Shown: in pieces, positions 4,610 to 36,223 of the stretch
Position numbering within the stretch: position 1 is the stretch's first letter
How the letters are laid out: the number at the start of each line of letters is the position of its first letter
Virus record (IMG/VR): IMGVR_UViG_2563366802_000006
Source: a virus
Taxonomy: Duplodnaviria; Heunggongvirae; Uroviricota; Caudoviricetes
Length of the DNA stretch: 46,505 bases
Reading direction: 5' to 3' (one strand)
The notes under the pieces: model-generated
Told to the model about the DNA's origin: nothing
The model's database searches: none
Seen by the model: only the letters and a program-made list of their open reading frames with translations
Made by a program: the position numbers and the translations under genes

Positions 4610-5280
4610 TGCTCCCCAAATACAAAACCAATTTCAGCCAGTGCCTCGTCCATTTTTTCGATGAACTCCGGCACCATCTCGTCAAAACTCGCCATGTACT
4701 TTTCATCCCGCTCAACCACGACATAATGCAGTCCTTCACGCTTCATACGCGGGTCATAGTTGGCAAAGTACCAGGCATCTTTTCGTGTCACCCACATGCT
4801 GTACTGCACCTGGGCCATGTAAGCCGACTTTATGGCCTCGAAACCACCGAGCCGGAACTTCATGAAATCCCGGGAGGTAAACGGGCATTTCAGCTCAAGG
4901 CCATTGCCGTCACTGCATAAACCATCGGGAGAGCAGGCGGTGCGCATACTTTCGTCGCGATAGATGATCGGGGATTCAGTAACATTCACGCCGGAAGTGA
5001 ATTCAAACAGAGTTCTGGCGTCGTTCTCGTACTGTTTTCCCCATGCCAGCGCCTTAGCATTAACTTCCGGAGCCACACCGGTGCAAACCTCAGCCAGCAG
5101 GGTGTGGAAGTAGGACATTTTCATGTCAGGCCACTTCTTTCCTGAGCGGGGCTTGGCTATCACGTTGTGAGCTTCTGAAGCGGTGATGACGCCGAGCCGT
5201 AATTTGTGCCATGCATCATCCCCCTGTTCGACAGCTCTTACGTCGATCCCGGTACGCTGCAGTATAATGTCCGGTGTCAT
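4600..5280 (-). CDS. exo: Lambda exonuclease (Red-alpha)
   Basis: 226-aa ORF near-identical to lambda Exo ([36 protein letters not shown]...). Confidence 0.97.
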
Positions 5281-6062
5281 GCTGCCACCTTCTGCTCAGT
5301 GGCTTTCTGTTTCAGGAATCCAAGAGCTTTCACTGCTTCGGCCTGTGTCAGTTCTGACGATGCGCGAATGTCGCGGCGAAATATCTGGGAACAGAGCGGC
5401 AATAAGTCGTCATCCCATGTTTTATCCAGGGCGATCAGCAGAGTGTTAATCTCCTGCATGGTTTCATCGTTAACCGGAGTGATGTCGCGTTCCGGCTGAC
5501 GTTCTGCAGTGTATGCAGTATTTTCGACAATGCGCTCGGCTTCATCCTTGTCATAGATACCAGCAAATCCGAAGGCCAGACGGGCACACTGAATCATGGC
5601 TTTATGCCGTAACATCCGTTTGGGATGCGACTGCCACGGTCCGGTGATTTCTCTGCCTTCGCGGGTTTTGAATGGTTCGCGGCGGCATTCATCCATCCAC
5701 TCGGTAACGCAGATCGGATGATTACGGTCCTTGCGGTAAATCCGGCATGTACATGATTCATTGTCCTGCTCAAAGTCCATGCCATCAAACTGCTGGTTTT
5801 CATTGATGATACGGGACCAGCCATCAACGCCCACCACCGGAACGATGCCGTTCTGCTTGTCAGGGAAGGCGTAAATTTCTTTCGTCCACGGATTAAGGCC
5901 GTACTGGTTGGCGACGATCAACAATGCGATGAACTGCGCATCGCTGGCATCACCTTTAAATGCCGTCTGGCGAAGAGTGGTGATCAGTTCCTGTGGGTCG
6001 ACAGAATCCATGCCGACGCGTTCAGCCAGCTTCCCAGCCAGCGTTGCGAGTGCTGTACTCAT
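5277..6062 (-). CDS. bet: Lambda Bet single-strand annealing protein (Red-beta)
   Basis: 261-aa ORF near-identical to lambda Bet; overlaps exo start. Confidence 0.97.
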
Positions 6063-6582: not shown

Positions 6583-6715
6583 TTTTTGGGACTCCTGGCT
6601 GATTAAGTATGTCGATAAGGCGTTTCCATCCGTCACGTAATTTACGGGTGATTCGTTCAAGTAAAGATTCGGAAGGGCAGCCAGCAACAGGCCACCCTGC
6701 AATGGCATATTGCAT
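6551..6715 (-). CDS. cIII: cIII protease inhibitor
   Basis: Found by hand on the minus strand (below the 60-aa ORF-track cutoff): [54 protein letters not shown], 54 aa, matches lambda cIII. Confidence 0.85.
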   Translation of the reverse strand: MQYAIAGWPVAGCPSESLLERITRKLRDGWKRLIDILNQPGVPKNGSNTYGYPD

Positions 6716-6787
6716 GGTGTGCTCCTTATTTATACATAACGAAAAACGCCTCGAGTGAAGCGTTATTGGTATGCGGTAACGCCGCGC

Positions 6788-32056: not shown

Positions 32057-32797
32057 ATGCCTGTACCAAATCCAGTAATGCCGGTGAAAGGGGCCGGGAC
32101 CACACTGTGGGTTTATAAGGGGAACGGTGACCCTTATGCGAACCCGCTTTCAGACGTTGACTGGTCGCGTCTGGCTAAAGTTAAAGACCTGACGCCCGGC
32201 GAACTGACCGCTGAGTCCTATGACGACAGCTATCTCGATGATGAAGATGCGGACTGGACTGCGACCGGGCAGGGGCAGAAATCTGCCGGAGATACCAGCT
32301 TCACGCTGGCGTGGATGCCCGGAGAGCAGGGGCAGCAGGCGCTGCTGGCGTGGTTTAATGAAGGGGATACCCGAGCCTATAAAATCCGCTTCCCGAATGG
32401 CACGGTCGATGTGTTCCGCGGCTGGGTCAGCAGTATCGGTAAGGCGGTGACGGCGAAGGAAGTGATCACCCGCACGGTGAAAGTCACCAACGTGGGACGT
32501 CCGTCGATGGCAGAAGATCGCAGCACGGTAACAGCGGCAACCGGCATGACTGTGACGCCTGCCAGCACCTCGGTGGTGAAAGGGCAGAGCACCACGCTGA
32601 CCGTGGCATTCCAGCCGGAAGGCGCAACCGACAAGAGCTTCCGTGCGGTGTCTGCGGATAAAACAAAAGCCACCGTGTCGGTCAGTGGTATGACCATCAC
32701 CGTGAAAGGTGTTGCTGCAGGCAAGGTCAACATTCCGGTCGTATCCGGTAATGGTGAACTTGCTGCGGTTGCAGAAATCACCGTCACCGCCAGTTAA
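32057..32797 (+). CDS. V: Major tail tube protein V (with C-terminal Ig-like domain)
   Basis: Start at ATG 32057 ([22 protein letters not shown]...); matches lambda gpV. Confidence 0.96.
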
Positions 32798-32812: not shown

Positions 32813-33235
32813 ATGTTCCTGAAAACCGAATCATTTGAACATAACGGTGTGACCGTCACGCTTTCTGAACTGTCAGCCCTGCAGCGTATTGAGCATCTCG
32901 CCCTGATGAAACGGCAGGCAGAACAGGCGGAGTCAGACAGCAACCGGAAGTTTACTGTGGAAGACGCCATCAGAACCGGCGCGTTTCTGGTGGCGATGTC
33001 CCTGTGGCATAACCATCCGAAGAAGACAAAGCTGCCTTCCATGAATGAAGCCGTTAAACAGATTGAGCAGGAAGTGCTTACCACCTGGCCCACGGAGGCA
33101 ATTTCTCATGCTGAAAACGTGGTGTACCGGCTGTCCGGTATGTATGAGTTTGTTGTGAATGATGCCCCTGAACAGGCAGATGACGCCGGGCCAGCAGAGC
33201 CTGTTTCTGCGGGAAAGTGTTCGACGGTGAGCTGA
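32813..33235 (+). CDS. G: Tail assembly chaperone G
   Basis: 140-aa ORF matching lambda gpG. Confidence 0.95.
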   Translation: MFLKTESFEHNGVTVTLSELSALQRIEHLALMKRQAEQAESDSNRKFTVEDAIRTGAFLVAMSLWHNHPKKTKLPSMNEAVKQIEQEVLTTWPTEAISHAENVVYRLSGMYEFVVNDAPEQADDAGPAEPVSAGKCSTVS

Positions 33236-33651
33236 GTTTTGCCCTGAAACTGGCGCGTGAGATGGGGCGACCCGACTGGCGCGCCATGCTTGCCGGGATG
33301 TCATCCACGGAGTATGCCGACTGGCACCGCTTTTACAGTACCCATTATTTTCATGATGTTCTGCTGGATATGCACTTTTCCGGGCTGACGTACACCGTAC
33401 TCAGCCTGTTTTTCAGCGATCCGGATATGCATCCGCTGGATTTCAGTCTGCTGAACCGGCGCGAGGCTGACGAAGAGCCTGAAGATGATGTGCTGATGCA
33501 GAAAGCGGCAGGGCTTGCCGGAGGCGTCCGCTTTGGCCCGGACGGGAATGAAGTTATCCCCGCTTCCCCGGATGTGGCGGACATGACGGAGGATGACGTA
33601 ATGCTGATGACAGTATCAGAAGGGATCGCAGGAGGAGTCCGGTATGGCTGA
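33217..33651 (+). CDS. T: T portion of the G-T tail assembly chaperone, made by programmed -1 frameshift at G_GGA_AAG (33211-33217)
   Basis: Slippery heptamer GGGAAAG in the G frame near its 3' end; the -1 frame continues as GKVFDGELSFALKLAREMGRPDW... matching lambda gpT. Confidence 0.9.
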   Translation: MFDGELSFALKLAREMGRPDWRAMLAGMSSTEYADWHRFYSTHYFHDVLLDMHFSGLTYTVLSLFFSDPDMHPLDFSLLNRREADEEPEDDVLMQKAAGLAGGVRFGPDGNEVIPASPDVADMTEDDVMLMTVSEGIAGGVRYG

Positions 33652-36223
33652 ACCGGTAGGCGATCTGGTCGTTGATTTGAGTCTGGATGCGGCCAGATTT
33701 GACGAGCAGATGGCCAGAGTCAGGCGTCATTTTTCCGGTACGGAAAGTGATGCGAAAAAAACAGCGGCAGTCGTTGAACAGTCGATGAACCGGCAGGCGC
33801 TGGCTGCACAGAAAGCGGGAATTTCCGTCGGGCAGTATAAAGCCGCCATGCGTATGCTGCCTGCGCAGTTCACTGACGTGGCCACGCAGCTTGCAGGCGG
33901 GCAAAGTCCGTGGCTGATCCTGCTGCAACAGGGGGGTCAGGTGAAGGACTCCTTCGGCGGGATGATCCCCATGTTCCGGGGGCTTGCCGGTGCGATCACC
34001 CTGCCGATGGTGGGGGCCACCTCGCTGGCGGTGGCGACCGGAGCGCTGGCGTATGCCTGGTATCAGGGCAACTCAACCCTGTCCGATTTCAACAAAACGC
34101 TGGTCCTTTCCGGCAATCAGGCGGGACTGACGGCAGATCGTATGCTGGTCCTGTCCAGAGCCGGGCAGGCGGCAGGGCTGACGTTTAACCAGACCAGCGA
34201 GTCACTGACGGCGCTGGTGAATGCCGGTGTGCGTGGTGGTGAGCAGTTTGAGGCGATCAGCCAGAGTGTGGCGCGTTTCTCCTCTGCATCCGGCGTGGAG
34301 GTGGACAAGGTCGCTGAAGCCTTCGGGAAGCTGACCACAGACCCGACGTCGGGACTGACAGCGATGGCACGTCAGTTCCATAACGTGACGGCGGAGCAGA
34401 TTGCGTATGTTGCTCAGTTGCAGCGTTCCGGAGATGAAGCCGGGGCATTGCAGGCGGCGAACGAGGCCGCAACGAAAGGGTTTGATGACCAAACCCGCCG
34501 CCTGAAAGAGAACATGGGCACGCTGGAGACCTGGGCAGACAGGACAGCACGGGCATTCAAATCCATGTGGGATTCGGTGCTGGATATTGGTCGCCCGGAC
34601 ACTGCCCAGGGAATGCTGGAGAAAGCAGAAAAGGCTTTTGATGAGGCGGACAAAAAATGGCAGTGGTATCAGAGCCGGAGCCACCGGCGCGGTAAAACCT
34701 CAGCATTTCTTGCCAATCTCCGGGGAGCATGGGAGGACAGAGCGAATGCGCAACTTGGGCTTTCAGCCGCCACGTTGCAGGCCGATCTTGAAAAGGCCAG
34801 AGAGATGGCAGCAAAGGACTGGGCCGAGTCTGAGGCATCACGGCTGAAATATACCGAAGAGGCGCAGAAGGCTTACGAACGGCTGCAGACGCCGCTGGAG
34901 AAATATACCGCCCGTCAGGAAGAACTGAACAAGGCACTGAAAGACGGGAAAATCCTGCAGGCGGATTACAACACGCTGATGGCGGCGGCGAAAAAGGATT
35001 ATGAAGCGACGCTGAAAAAGCCGAAACAGTCCGGCGTGAAGGTGTCTGCGGGCGATCGTCAGGAAGACAGTGCTCATGCTGCCCTGCTGACGCTTCAGGC
35101 TGAACTCCGGACGCTGGAGAAGCATGCCGGAGCAAATGAGAAAATCAGCCAGCAGCGCCGGGATTTGTGGAAGGCGGAGAGCCAGTTCGCGGTACTGGAG
35201 GAGGCGGCGCATCGTCGCCAGCTGTCTGCACAGGAGAAATCCCTGCTGGCGCATAAAGATGAGACGCTGGAATACAAACGCCAGCTGGCTGCACTTGGCG
35301 ACAAGGTTACGTATCAGGAGCGCCTGAACGCGCTGGCGCAGCAGGCGGATAAATTCGCACAGCAGCAACGGGCAAAACGGGCCGCCATTGATGCGAAAAG
35401 CCGGGGGCTGACTGACCGGCAGGCAGAACGGGAAGCCACGGAACAGCGCCTGAAGGAACAGTATGGCGATAATCCGCTGGCGCTGAATAACATCATGTCA
35501 GAGCAGAAAAAGACCTGGGCGGCTGAAGACCAGCTTCGCGGGAACTGGATGGCAGGCCTGAAGTCCGGCTGGAGTGAGTGGGAAGAGAGCGCCACGGACA
35601 GTATGTCGCAGGTAAAAAGTGCAGCCACGCAGACCTTTGACGGTATTGCACAGAATATGGCGGCGATGCTGACCGGCAGTGAGCAGAACTGGCGCAGCTT
35701 CACCCGTTCCGTGCTGTCCATGATGACAGAAATTCTGCTTAAGCAGGCAATGGTGGGGATTGTCGGGAGTATCGGCAGCGCCATTGGCGGGGCTGTTGGT
35801 GGCGGCGCATCCGCGTCAGGCGGTACAGCCATTCAGGCCGCTGCGGCGAAATTCCATTTTGCAACCGGAGGATTTACGGGAACCGGCGGCAAATATGAGC
35901 CAGCGGGGATTGTTCACCGTGGTGAGTTTGTCTTCACGAAGGAGGCAACCAGCCGGATTGGCGTGGGGAATCTTTACCGGCTGATGCGCGGCTATGCCAC
36001 CGGCGGTTATGTCGGTACACCGGGCAGCATGGCAGACAGCCGGTCGCAGGCGTCCGGGACGTTTGAGCAGAATAACCATGTGGTGATTAACAACGACGGC
36101 ACGAACGGGCAGATAGGTCCGGCTGCTCTGAAGGCGGTGTATGACATGGCCCGCAAGGGTGCCCGTGATGAAATTCAGACACAGATGCGTGATGGTGGCC
36201 TGTTCTCCGGAGGTGGACGATGA
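33644..36223 (+). CDS. H: Tape measure protein H
   Basis: 859-aa ORF matching lambda gpH. Confidence 0.96.
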   Translation: MAEPVGDLVVDLSLDAARFDEQMARVRRHFSGTESDAKKTAAVVEQSMNRQALAAQKAGISVGQYKAAMRMLPAQFTDVATQLAGGQSPWLILLQQGGQVKDSFGGMIPMFRGLAGAITLPMVGATSLAVATGALAYAWYQGNSTLSDFNKTLVLSGNQAGLTADRMLVLSRAGQAAGLTFNQTSESLTALVNAGVRGGEQFEAISQSVARFSSASGVEVDKVAEAFGKLTTDPTSGLTAMARQFHNVTAEQIAYVAQLQRSGDEAGALQAANEAATKGFDDQTRRLKENMGTLETWADRTARAFKSMWDSVLDIGRPDTAQGMLEKAEKAFDEADKKWQWYQSRSHRRGKTSAFLANLRGAWEDRANAQLGLSAATLQADLEKAREMAAKDWAESEASRLKYTEEAQKAYERLQTPLEKYTARQEELNKALKDGKILQADYNTLMAAAKKDYEATLKKPKQSGVKVSAGDRQEDSAHAALLTLQAELRTLEKHAGANEKISQQRRDLWKAESQFAVLEEAAHRRQLSAQEKSLLAHKDETLEYKRQLAALGDKVTYQERLNALAQQADKFAQQQRAKRAAIDAKSRGLTDRQAEREATEQRLKEQYGDNPLALNNIMSEQKKTWAAEDQLRGNWMAGLKSGWSEWEESATDSMSQVKSAATQTFDGIAQNMAAMLTGSEQNWRSFTRSVLSMMTEILLKQAMVGIVGSIGSAIGGAVGGGASASGGTAIQAAAAKFHFATGGFTGTGGKYEPAGIVHRGEFVFTKEATSRIGVGNLYRLMRGYATGGYVGTPGSMADSRSQASGTFEQNNHVVINNDGTNGQIGPAALKAVYDMARKGARDEIQTQMRDGGLFSGGGR

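What the first reader, a model, noticed from the sequence alone, without database searches (positions are those of the whole stretch)
33211..33217. Conserved G-T programmed -1 frameshift site
The slippery heptamer G_GGA_AAG lies at the 3' end of G, with T open in the -1 frame immediately after, so the G and G-T chaperone pair should be produced as in lambda.
Basis: partly seen in the sequence, partly recalled or inferred. Interest (0 to 1): 0.2.

Follow-up and report, generated by a model that had tools for sequence, protein, structure and literature searches.

The report
Lambda G-T tail chaperone frameshift site
This is the well-known "slippery" sequence of phage lambda, present unchanged in a lambda-like prophage of E. 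coli, where a few percent of ribosomes slip back one base so that one gene yields two tail-assembly helper proteins; it is real but ordinary.

Summary
GGGAAAG lies at 33211-33217 on the + strand, phased G_GGA_AAG in gene G (32813-33235) and ending 15 nt before the G stop. The T frame is -1 and is open from 33184 to 33651. G and T sit between the major tail gene V and the tape-measure gene H.

G is 96% and T 100% identical to phage lambda's proteins. The heptamer and its flanks match the lambda site, where -1 frameshifting (about 4%) making gpG and gpGT was shown experimentally.

The heptamer alone is not rarer than chance (8 in the window, 6 expected). Its context is.
- In 81 distinct related loci, T is -1 in 81/81.
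- An in-phase N_NNA_AAR motif lies in the short overlap in 81/81 (16 expected).
- The motif itself turns over between GGGAAAG, GGAAAAG, AAAAAAG and others.
- Only 9/81 loci have an early start codon in the T frame, and none of those has a Shine-Dalgarno core.

A downstream RNA fold starting 7 nt after the heptamer is modestly supported in lambda-like phages but is not conserved across the family.

The parts
33211..33217 (+). Slippery heptamer G_GGA_AAG, the -1 programmed ribosomal frameshift site
   Evidence: Read directly and phase computed. It is identical to lambda's site, invariant in 57/57 close relatives, and an equivalent slippery motif sits at this position in 81/81 distinct loci.
32813..33235 (+). 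Gene G, the tail assembly chaperone gpG (140 aa), the 0-frame product
   Evidence: Pfam PF06894 Phage_TAC_2 at E=1.6e-59. NCBIfam equivalog TIGR01674 at 213 bits against a cut-off of 74. 134/140 identical to lambda gpG.
33217..33651 (+). T segment in the -1 frame; it becomes the C-terminal domain of the gpGT fusion, join(32813..33217,33217..33651), 279 aa
   Evidence: Pfam PF06223 Phage_tail_T. NCBIfam TIGR01715 at 186 bits, with profile position 1 at fusion residue 140, five residues after the slip. 144/144 identical to lambda T. phrog_32165 spans G and T as a single protein.
33184..33235 (+). The 52-nt stretch where both the G frame and the T frame are open, the only place a -1 shift can join G to T
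   Evidence: It contains a single in-phase slippery heptamer. It is shorter than lambda's 64 nt because a TGA at 33181-33183 closes the -1 frame.
33225..33295 (+). Predicted downstream RNA fold, with an outer helix 33225-33232/33288-33295 enclosing a GC-rich hairpin 33252-33285. It is a possible modest stimulator but is unproven.
   Evidence: MFE z = -2.05 against dinucleotide shuffles and z = -1.86 against synonymous recoding. 85% of cells pair in 17 lambda/N15/phi80-type sequences. In 65 diverse sequences pairing falls to 69% and no family-wide consensus fold is found.
32057..32797 (+). Context: gene V, the major tail tube protein, which is the binding partner of the T domain in lambda
   Evidence: Pfam PF16461 plus Big_2. 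The start is taken from the RefSeq annotation of the identical E. coli strain 3359 locus.
33644..36223 (+). Context: gene H, the tape-measure protein, which is the binding partner of the G domain in lambda. Its start overlaps the T stop by 8 nt.
   Evidence: Pfam PF06791 plus PF09718; ORF listed.

Best explanation
This is the programmed -1 ribosomal frameshift site of the lambda-type tail assembly chaperone genes G and T, in a lambda-like prophage of E. coli. Most ribosomes translating G read G_GGA_AAG in frame, go on for five codons and stop, making gpG (140 aa). A small fraction, about 4% in lambda, slips back one base while tRNA-Gly and tRNA-Lys occupy GGA and AAG. The tRNAs re-pair with GGG and AAA, decoding resumes at GTG (33217) in the T frame, and the 279-aa fusion gpGT results. 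In lambda the G part of both proteins coats the tape-measure protein H, and the T part of the rare fusion recruits the major tail protein V. The fixed slip rate therefore sets the roughly 30:1 gpG:gpGT ratio needed for tail assembly. Shown here: the sequence anatomy, near-identity to lambda, family membership, and conservation of the arrangement. Taken from the literature: the slip itself, its rate, and the protein functions. Inferred: that this copy behaves the same way.
For: The heptamer is in the correct phase at the 3' end of G, and T is open in the -1 frame. The gene order V-G-T-H has the expected family hits. T is 100% and G 96% identical to lambda, and the DNA around the site is unchanged. 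Across 81 distinct loci, with T identity down to about 32-40% in Proteus, Providencia, Pantoea, Edwardsiella and a Vibrio phage, T is -1 in 81/81. The two-frame overlap is short (median 43 nt). An in-phase N_NNA_AAR motif lies 0, 3 or 15 nt before the G stop in 81/81, against 16.3 expected. The motif changes identity (GGAAAAG 54, GGGAAAG 13, AAAAAAG 4, five rarer forms) while staying slippery and in place. Only 9/81 loci have any ATG/GTG/TTG early enough in the T frame to encode a whole T domain, and none of those has an SD core. Literature: the lambda gpG/gpGT frameshift at G_GGA_AAG, with the 0 frame kept about 96% of the time, a ratio near 30:1, and sensitivity to tRNA-Lys mnm5s2U34 modification (PMC3296357; PMC5009743; PMC7618472). 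G_GGA_AAG is among the most frameshift-prone heptamers in E. coli reporters, and the gpG cluster is listed as a true case (PMC4066793).
Against: No protein or ribosome data exist for this copy, so expression of the prophage is assumed. The heptamer string alone occurs at chance frequency. The bare heptamer gave only 0.28% frameshifting in a reporter without stimulators (PMC4066793), so the heptamer alone may not explain about 4%, and the source of the extra efficiency is unresolved. The 81 loci are related to one another, so the joint probability computed overstates independence.
Confidence: 0.94

Rival explanations
1. The frameshift is real but is not driven by the heptamer alone. A downstream RNA fold beginning 7 nt after the heptamer (33225-33295) pauses ribosomes and raises slippage from the bare-heptamer level to lambda's level of about 4%. 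This refines the mechanism and does not contradict the main explanation.
For: The fold starts at a typical stimulator spacing. It is more stable than dinucleotide shuffles (z = -2.05) and than synonymous recodings in all 12 loci tested (z from -0.8 to -2.6). In 17 lambda/N15/phi80-type sequences 85% of cells pair, against 26-45% when the partners are slid, and pair 16-84 occurs as G-C, A-U and C-G. Reporter data show 0.28% for the bare heptamer and 3.8% with moderate stimulators (PMC4066793). The same paper flagged a hairpin with a 7-nt spacer in 51% of its gpG cluster.
Against: In 65 diverse sequences pairing drops to 69%. Measures that count independent pair types are at shuffle level (14 vs 13.7; 45 vs 44.8). 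RNAalifold finds no family-wide fold. Fels-1, mEp460 and the Vibrio phage fold differently. The region encodes the most conserved part of T (LAREMGRPDWRAML), so nucleotide conservation is confounded with protein constraint. Sharma et al. found the hairpin no more stable than its local background (ddG 0.020 +/- 0.095). The structure was derived from one of the sequences on which it was then tested.
Confidence: 0.25
2. T is a separate gene translated from its own start, either the GTG at 33217 or the ATG at 33262, as many database records annotate it, and no fusion protein is made.
For: Lambda NC_001416 and RefSeq E. coli strain 3359 annotate T as a stand-alone CDS from the GTG. phiSTEC1575-Stx2k, VT1-Sakai and PhiR12_1 annotate it from an internal ATG.
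Against: No SD core lies at a usable distance before either candidate start. The ATG at 33262 would remove about 11 positions of the T family profile, which begins 5 residues after the slip site. Across the family only 9/81 loci have any start codon early enough and none has an SD, and the first ATG wanders between codons 5 and 23. The literature describes only gpG and gpGT as products. One PHROG models G and T as a single protein.
Confidence: 0.03
3. The fusion arises from transcriptional slippage, in which RNA polymerase adds or drops a base, rather than from ribosomal slippage.
For: Both routes would give the same fusion protein. Some relatives carry an A6 run (AAAAAAG).
Against: The window has a run of only three A and three G. 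From my own knowledge, not tested here, efficient transcriptional slippage in bacteria needs homopolymer runs of about 7-9 or more. The lambda frameshift rate responds to the tRNA-Lys modification state, which is a ribosomal property (PMC3296357).
Confidence: 0.01
4. The site is a silent relic because the prophage is defective or never expressed, so the motif has no current function in this genome.
For: Many lambdoid prophages in E. coli are cryptic. One relative, L146 from Shigella flexneri, has a degraded G-T locus.
Against: V, G, T and H are all intact and almost identical to functional phages. The window carries a full lambda-like gene order from integrase to tail fibres.
Confidence: 0.03

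Closest known systems
Phage lambda G / G-T programmed -1 frameshift (Levin, Hendrix & Casjens 1993; Xu, Hendrix & Duda 2004, 2013, 2014)
   Same: The same heptamer G_GGA_AAG in the same phase, 15 nt before the G stop. The DNA is identical from about 28 nt upstream to over 60 nt downstream. T is 144/144 and G 134/140 identical, and the V-G-T-H order is the same.
   Different: G has six amino-acid substitutions, none at the site. A TGA at 33181-33183 closes the -1 frame earlier, so the two-frame overlap is 52 nt rather than 64 nt. One synonymous C/T difference at 33282 turns a G-U pair of the predicted hairpin into G-C.
N15 gp14/15, phi80 G/G-T and LLS tail chaperones, with annotated slippery sequence G_GAA_AAG
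   Same: Homologous G and T, T in the -1 frame, and a slip site at the same aligned position 15 nt before the G stop. This is the majority form of the family, 54 of 81 loci.
   Different: The heptamer is imperfect, since the P-site codon GAA would re-pair with GGA. It was described as less slippery than G_GGA_AAG in vitro (PMC6924986). T is shorter and lacks the second copy of the C-terminal GGVR[FY]G motif.
Stx-prophage tail chaperones (VT1-Sakai G/T, ECs1801 cluster A_AAA_AAG_25 of Sharma et al. 2014)
   Same: Homologous genes, the same position and phase, and the same downstream sequence block.
   Different: The heptamer is A_AAA_AAG, and G is only distantly similar.
E. coli dnaX and IS911/IS3 -1 frameshift signals
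   Same: The slip occurs on a lysine A_AAG A-site codon read by the single E. coli tRNA-Lys (mnm5s2UUU), in an X_XXY_YYZ heptamer.
   Different: Those signals use strong, defined stimulators (an upstream SD and a downstream stem-loop or pseudoknot) and reach far higher efficiency. Here there is no upstream SD core and only a weakly supported downstream fold, and the efficiency in lambda is a few percent.

Membership tests
Lambda-type tail assembly chaperone G/GT with conserved -1 frameshift (Xu et al. 2004) | Two overlapping ORFs located between the major tail protein gene and the tape-measure gene | tested here: met
   V (PF16461) ends at 32797, G is 32813-33235, T is 33217-33651, and H (PF06791/PF09718) starts at 33644.
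Lambda-type tail assembly chaperone G/GT with conserved -1 frameshift (Xu et al. 2004) | The downstream ORF lies in the -1 frame relative to the upstream ORF | tested here: met
   for the window; 81/81 distinct related loci.
Lambda-type tail assembly chaperone G/GT with conserved -1 frameshift (Xu et al. 2004) | A slippery heptamer, in 0-frame phase X_XXY_YYZ, lies inside the overlap near the end of the upstream ORF | tested here: met
   G_GGA_AAG at 33211-33217, 15 nt before the G stop. It is the only such motif in the 52-nt overlap.
Lambda-type tail assembly chaperone G/GT with conserved -1 frameshift (Xu et al. 2004) | The upstream ORF is homologous to gpG | tested here: met
   PF06894 at E=1.6e-59. 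TIGR01674 equivalog at 213 bits against a cut-off of 74. 96% identity to lambda gpG.
Lambda-type tail assembly chaperone G/GT with conserved -1 frameshift (Xu et al. 2004) | The downstream ORF is homologous to gpT and has no translation start of its own | tested here: met
   PF06223. TIGR01715 at 186 bits, starting 5 residues after the slip. 100% identity to lambda T. No SD-preceded start in the window or in any of the 81 loci.
Lambda-type tail assembly chaperone G/GT with conserved -1 frameshift (Xu et al. 2004) | A G-T fusion protein is actually made at a low, fixed fraction of gpG | not testable with these tools
   Known for lambda from the literature and inferred here from the identical site.
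Lambda-type tail assembly chaperone G/GT with conserved -1 frameshift (Xu et al. 2004) | Both products are required for tail assembly and are absent from mature virions | not testable with these tools
   Literature on lambda only (PMC5009743).
Stimulated bacterial -1 PRF signals (dnaX / IS911 / IS3 type) | A conserved RNA stem-loop or pseudoknot 5-9 nt downstream of the heptamer | tested here: inconclusive
   A fold with a 7-nt spacer has z about -2 and is supported in 17 close sequences, but not family-wide in 65 sequences. Sharma et al. found it no more stable than background.
Stimulated bacterial -1 PRF signals (dnaX / IS911 / IS3 type) | An SD-like element 6-17 nt upstream of the heptamer | tested here: not met
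   The window's upstream 25 nt, CCGGGCCAGCAGAGCCTGTTTCTGC, has no AGGA/GGAG/GAGG core. Sharma et al. score the gpG cluster 'N' for SD.
Transcriptional slippage sites | A long homopolymeric A or T run | tested here: not met
   The runs here are only A3 and G3. The length requirement is from my own knowledge.

The most novel reading that the evidence does not exclude
In the lambda/N15/phi80 subgroup, the 71 nt starting 7 nt after the heptamer (33225-33295) form a branched RNA fold embedded in the most conserved part of the T coding sequence. This fold would tune slippage to the few-percent level that sets the gpG:gpGT ratio. If so, the textbook 'heptamer-only' lambda site has an unrecognised stimulator, and the unusually high nucleotide conservation of the T N-terminus would be partly RNA-level selection.
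Probability: 0.2. Interest if true: 0.3.

Novelty: already known. Interest (0 to 1): 0.07.

Why it matters
It matters mainly for correct annotation. G and T should be annotated as gpG plus a ribosomal-slippage join giving gpGT, join(32813..33217,33217..33651). Many public records instead list T as an independent gene, often from a wrong internal start. The site is present in about two thirds of complete E. coli genomes (3,684 of 5,426), so the error is widespread. Biologically the finding adds nothing new to the lambda paradigm. The comparative tally made here is a tidy confirmation that selection acts on slipperiness and position rather than on a particular sequence: 81/81 loci keep a -1 arrangement and an in-phase A_AAR slip site while the heptamer itself turns over.

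Tried and rejected
1. Heptamer rarity. The bare string occurs at chance frequency, so this was rejected as evidence.

2. Other frameshift-like sites in the window. The only look-alike, CCCAAAC on the minus strand at 5624, lies in a spurious ORF nested inside bet.

3. Rfam. No RNA family covers the site. The only hit in the window is the cIII thermoregulator.

4. Family-wide downstream structure. It looked promising in 17 close sequences but was not upheld in 65 diverse ones.

5. Upstream SD stimulator. Absent from the window.

6. Independent initiation of T. Rejected on start-codon and SD statistics and on where the T family profile begins.

7. Solved structures. None detectable by sequence for G, T or the fusion.

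8. A first scan of viral contigs with the T protein alone returned only 99%-identical copies, which served for invariance but not for covariation.

9. Primary papers. Levin 1993 and Xu 2013/2014 are not in the held library, so I could not check what they report about downstream sequence requirements.

Full report
**The observation**

The string GGGAAAG is at window 33211-33217 on the + strand. The ORF that contains it runs 32813-33235 (140 aa). Position 33211 is the third base of a codon, so the 0-frame reading is GC-G GGA AAG, the X_XXY_YYZ phase needed for tandem tRNA slippage. The heptamer ends 15 nt before the ORF's TGA. The -1 frame is open from 33184 to a stop at 33649-33651. A ribosome that slips back one base on the heptamer would next read GTG at 33217 and go on to make a 279-aa fusion protein.

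**Is it more than chance?**

The string alone is not. There are 8 copies in the window on both strands, against 6.0 +/- 2.2 in dinucleotide-preserving shuffles.

The configuration is. I listed all 93 in-phase X_XXY_YYZ heptamers in stop-to-stop ORFs of at least 300 nt on both strands. Only the one at 33211 combines three things: it is close to the stop of a genuine gene, it opens a long -1 frame, and that frame hits a protein family. The one superficially similar case, CCCAAAC on the minus strand at 5624, lies in a spurious 77-aa ORF nested inside the bet recombinase gene (5277-6062, minus strand), and its '-1 frame' is simply bet.

**What the genes are**

- The upstream ORF matches Pfam PF06894 (lambda tail assembly chaperone G, E=1.6e-59) and the NCBIfam equivalog TIGR01674 (213 bits against a cut-off of 74).
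- The -1 frame matches PF06223 and TIGR01715 (phage tail assembly protein T, 186 bits against a cut-off of 77).
- In the conceptual fusion, the T profile begins at residue 140, only five residues after the slip site and ahead of the first in-frame ATG at 33262.
- One PHROG (phrog_32165, 290 positions) aligns to G over positions 1-142 and to T over positions 140-285, so it models the fused protein.
- The pair sits between the major tail tube gene V (PF16461 plus an Ig-like domain) and the tape-measure gene H (PF06791, PF09718).

**Identity with lambda**

The G-T region is 98.2% identical in DNA to phage lambda (NC_001416, 9711-10549). The heptamer and its flanks, about 28 nt upstream and over 60 nt downstream, are unchanged. 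T is 144/144 identical and G 134/140 identical to lambda's proteins.

The window as a whole is a mosaic lambda-like prophage in integrated gene order, from integrase to tail fibres. It carries the lambda cIII thermoregulator RNA. A 361-nt stretch around the site matches the chromosome of E. coli strain 3359 at 100%. The same stretch is found in 3,684 of 5,426 complete E. coli genomes.

**What is known about this site**

Held papers citing Levin, Hendrix and Casjens (1993) and Xu, Hendrix and Duda (2004, 2013, 2014) state the following.

- Lambda makes gpG by standard translation and gpGT by a low-level -1 frameshift.
- The two products are needed at a molar ratio of about 30:1, and neither is in the virion.
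- The G part binds the tape-measure protein, and the T part binds the major tail protein (PMC5009743).
- The 0 frame is maintained about 96% of the time at GGGAAAG, and hypomodification of tRNA-Lys (mnm5s2U34) raises slippage and lowers phage yield (PMC3296357; PMC7618472).
- In E. coli reporter constructs G_GGA_AAG gave 0.277% frameshifting with no stimulator, 3.80% with the moderate IS911 stimulators and 43.0% with the IS3 pseudoknot. The gpG gene cluster is listed there as a true case (PMC4066793).

**Comparative test made here**

I assembled G-T loci from annotated phages and from species-representative bacterial genomes, using an alignment of T domains as the query. This gave 81 distinct loci, with T identity to the window going down to about 32-40% (Proteus, Providencia, Pantoea, Edwardsiella, a Vibrio phage). 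Results are unless stated.

| Property | Result |
|---|---|
| T frame relative to the upstream ORF | -1 in 81/81 |
| Length of the two-frame overlap | 16-163 nt, median 43 |
| In-phase N_NNA_AAR motif inside the overlap | 81/81 |
| Loci expected to have such a motif by chance | 16.3 of 81 |
| Distance from heptamer end to the G stop | 0 nt (12 loci), 3 nt (19), 15 nt (50) |

The chance expectation uses the frequency of such motifs elsewhere in the same G genes, 147 in 9,685 codon positions. The loci are related, so the formal joint probability overstates independence.

The motif itself turns over:

| Heptamer | Loci |
|---|---|
| GGAAAAG | 54 |
| GGGAAAG | 13 |
| AAAAAAG | 4 |
| AGAAAAG | 3 |
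| GGTAAAG | 3 |
| GGCAAAA | 2 |
| CCCAAAA | 1 |
| GGGAAAA | 1 |

This is the pattern expected if slipperiness at a fixed place is what is selected. Among 57 near-identical IMG/VR copies (38 distinct sequences) the heptamer is invariant, and it sits in a 31-nt invariant block.

**Rival: independent initiation of T**

Databases often annotate T as a separate gene. Some records start it at the GTG that is the last base of the heptamer plus two (lambda, RefSeq strain 3359). Others start it at an internal ATG (phiSTEC1575-Stx2k, VT1-Sakai, PhiR12_1). Only a few records annotate the join (LLS, phi80).

In the window neither candidate start has an SD core at a usable distance. Across the 81 loci only 9 have any ATG/GTG/TTG early enough to encode the whole T domain, and none of those has an SD core. 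The first ATG falls at codon 5, 9, 10, 15 or 23 after the slip site, inside the conserved domain. Independent initiation is therefore not the family's mechanism.

**Rival: transcriptional slippage**

This is unlikely because the runs here are only A3 and G3 (the run-length requirement is from my own knowledge). In addition, the rate in lambda responds to tRNA modification, which is a ribosomal property.

**Is there a stimulatory element?**

The gap between the reporter value for the bare heptamer (0.28%) and lambda's native rate (about 4%) made this worth testing.

Upstream, the window has no SD-like core, in agreement with Sharma et al..

Downstream, ViennaRNA predicts a branched fold starting 7 nt after the heptamer. 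An outer helix (33225-33232 with 33288-33295) encloses a GC-rich hairpin (33252-33285).

Evidence in favour:
- The fold has z = -2.05 against dinucleotide shuffles.
- Against a null that keeps the T protein and recodes synonymously, the window gives z = -1.86.
- All 12 loci tested fold more stably than their recodings, with z from -0.8 to -2.6.
- In 17 lambda, Stx-prophage, N15 and phi80-type sequences, 85% of cells pair, against 26-45% when partners are slid. Pair 16-84 appears as G-C, A-U and C-G.

Evidence against:
- In 65 diverse sequences pairing falls to 69%.
- The measures that count independent pair types are at shuffle level (14 vs 13.7; 45 vs 44.8).
- RNAalifold finds no shared fold.
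- The distant members fold differently.
- The region encodes the most conserved peptide of T (LAREMGRPDWRAML), which confounds nucleotide conservation with protein constraint.
- Sharma et al. found a hairpin with a 7-nt spacer in 51% of their gpG cluster, but it was no more stable than its surroundings.

I conclude that a modest stimulator specific to this subgroup is possible (about 0.2-0.25) but unproven, and that it is not a defining part of the signal. The primary papers that might settle this for lambda are not in the held library.

**Comparison with known systems and membership**

The site meets every sequence-level criterion of the conserved G/GT tail chaperone frameshift: position between the tail tube and tape-measure genes, the -1 relationship, an in-phase slippery heptamer in the overlap, homology of both parts, and no start for T. 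At the site itself it is the lambda allele. Production of the fusion and its role in assembly cannot be tested here and are inferred from lambda.

It works like other bacterial -1 signals that slip on a lysine A_AAG codon (dnaX, IS911). It lacks their upstream SD, and it lacks convincing evidence for their strong downstream structure.

**Verdict**

Interest is low (0.07). The practical consequence is annotation: gpGT should be join(32813..33217,33217..33651).

Noticed in passing
window 6670-6728 (-): Rfam RF01804 Lambda_thermo, the cIII thermoregulator element, at 88.5 bits against a gathering score of 50. It is the only Rfam hit in the window, and no tRNA genes were found.
   Followed up: no
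window 33630-33651 (+): The H start codon (ATG 33644) overlaps the T stop in ATGGCTGA, and a strong SD, AGGAGGAG (33630-33637), lies inside the T coding sequence. Only the few percent of ribosomes that frameshift traverse T, so H must rely on its own initiation there rather than on coupling.
   Followed up: no
window 33217-33648 (+), T residues about 93-107 and 128-143: The C-terminal motif LM..A.G[IL].GGVR[FY]G occurs twice in the T domain of the window, lambda and PhiR12_1. It occurs only once in N15, phi80-type, Fels-1, mEp460 and Vibrio phage T domains, which suggests a terminal duplication in the lambda lineage.
   Followed up: no
L001, L002, L006, L007, L099 (public records): Annotation of T is inconsistent. 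It is a stand-alone CDS from the GTG at the heptamer in lambda NC_001416 and in RefSeq E. coli strain 3359. It starts from an internal ATG, losing about 15 conserved residues, in phiSTEC1575-Stx2k, VT1-Sakai and PhiR12_1. A proper slippage join appears only in LLS and phi80.
   Followed up: partly
L101-L115, L128, L134, L157 (genome contigs): Lambda-like G-T sequence (98-100% T identity) turns up in representative assemblies of unrelated taxa, including Neobacillus, Oceanobacillus, Kitasatospora, Pseudomonas, Shewanella, Chromatium, Enterococcus and Marinifilum. It is often on contigs of about 48.4 kb or very short contigs with about 1x coverage. This looks like lambda control-DNA contamination of those assemblies.
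   Followed up: no
L004, L005, L008, L009, L094-L097 and most of L117-L177: The majority heptamer of the family is G_GAA_AAG (54 of 81 loci), which is not a perfect X_XXY_YYZ and was called less slippery than G_GGA_AAG in vitro (PMC6924986). GGTAAAG, AGAAAAG and GGCAAAA also occur, so the constant element is the A-site A_AAR tetramer.
   Followed up: partly
window 33181-33183 (+): A TGA in the -1 frame, from a G-to-T difference relative to lambda, shortens the stretch where both frames are open to 52 nt, against 64 nt in lambda. No effect on the site is expected.
   Followed up: yes
window 5594-5827 (-), heptamer at about 5624: An in-phase CCCAAAC 21 nt before the stop of a 77-aa ORF, with 113 codons open in the -1 frame, mimics a frameshift site. 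The ORF is spurious and nested inside bet (5277-6062, minus strand), so this is a chance artefact.
   Followed up: yes
L146 (Shigella flexneri CP182557.1): The T-like frame is truncated and no G-like ORF overlaps it, so this is probably a decayed prophage copy.
   Followed up: no
window 33251-33300 (+) and aligned columns 40-90 of A3/A5: The nucleotide sequence encoding the T N-terminus (CTGGCGCG.GAG...GACTGGCG.GCCATGCT) is unusually conserved, including several third-codon positions, even in phages whose G genes have diverged strongly. Protein constraint explains most of this, and whether RNA-level selection contributes is unresolved.
   Followed up: partly
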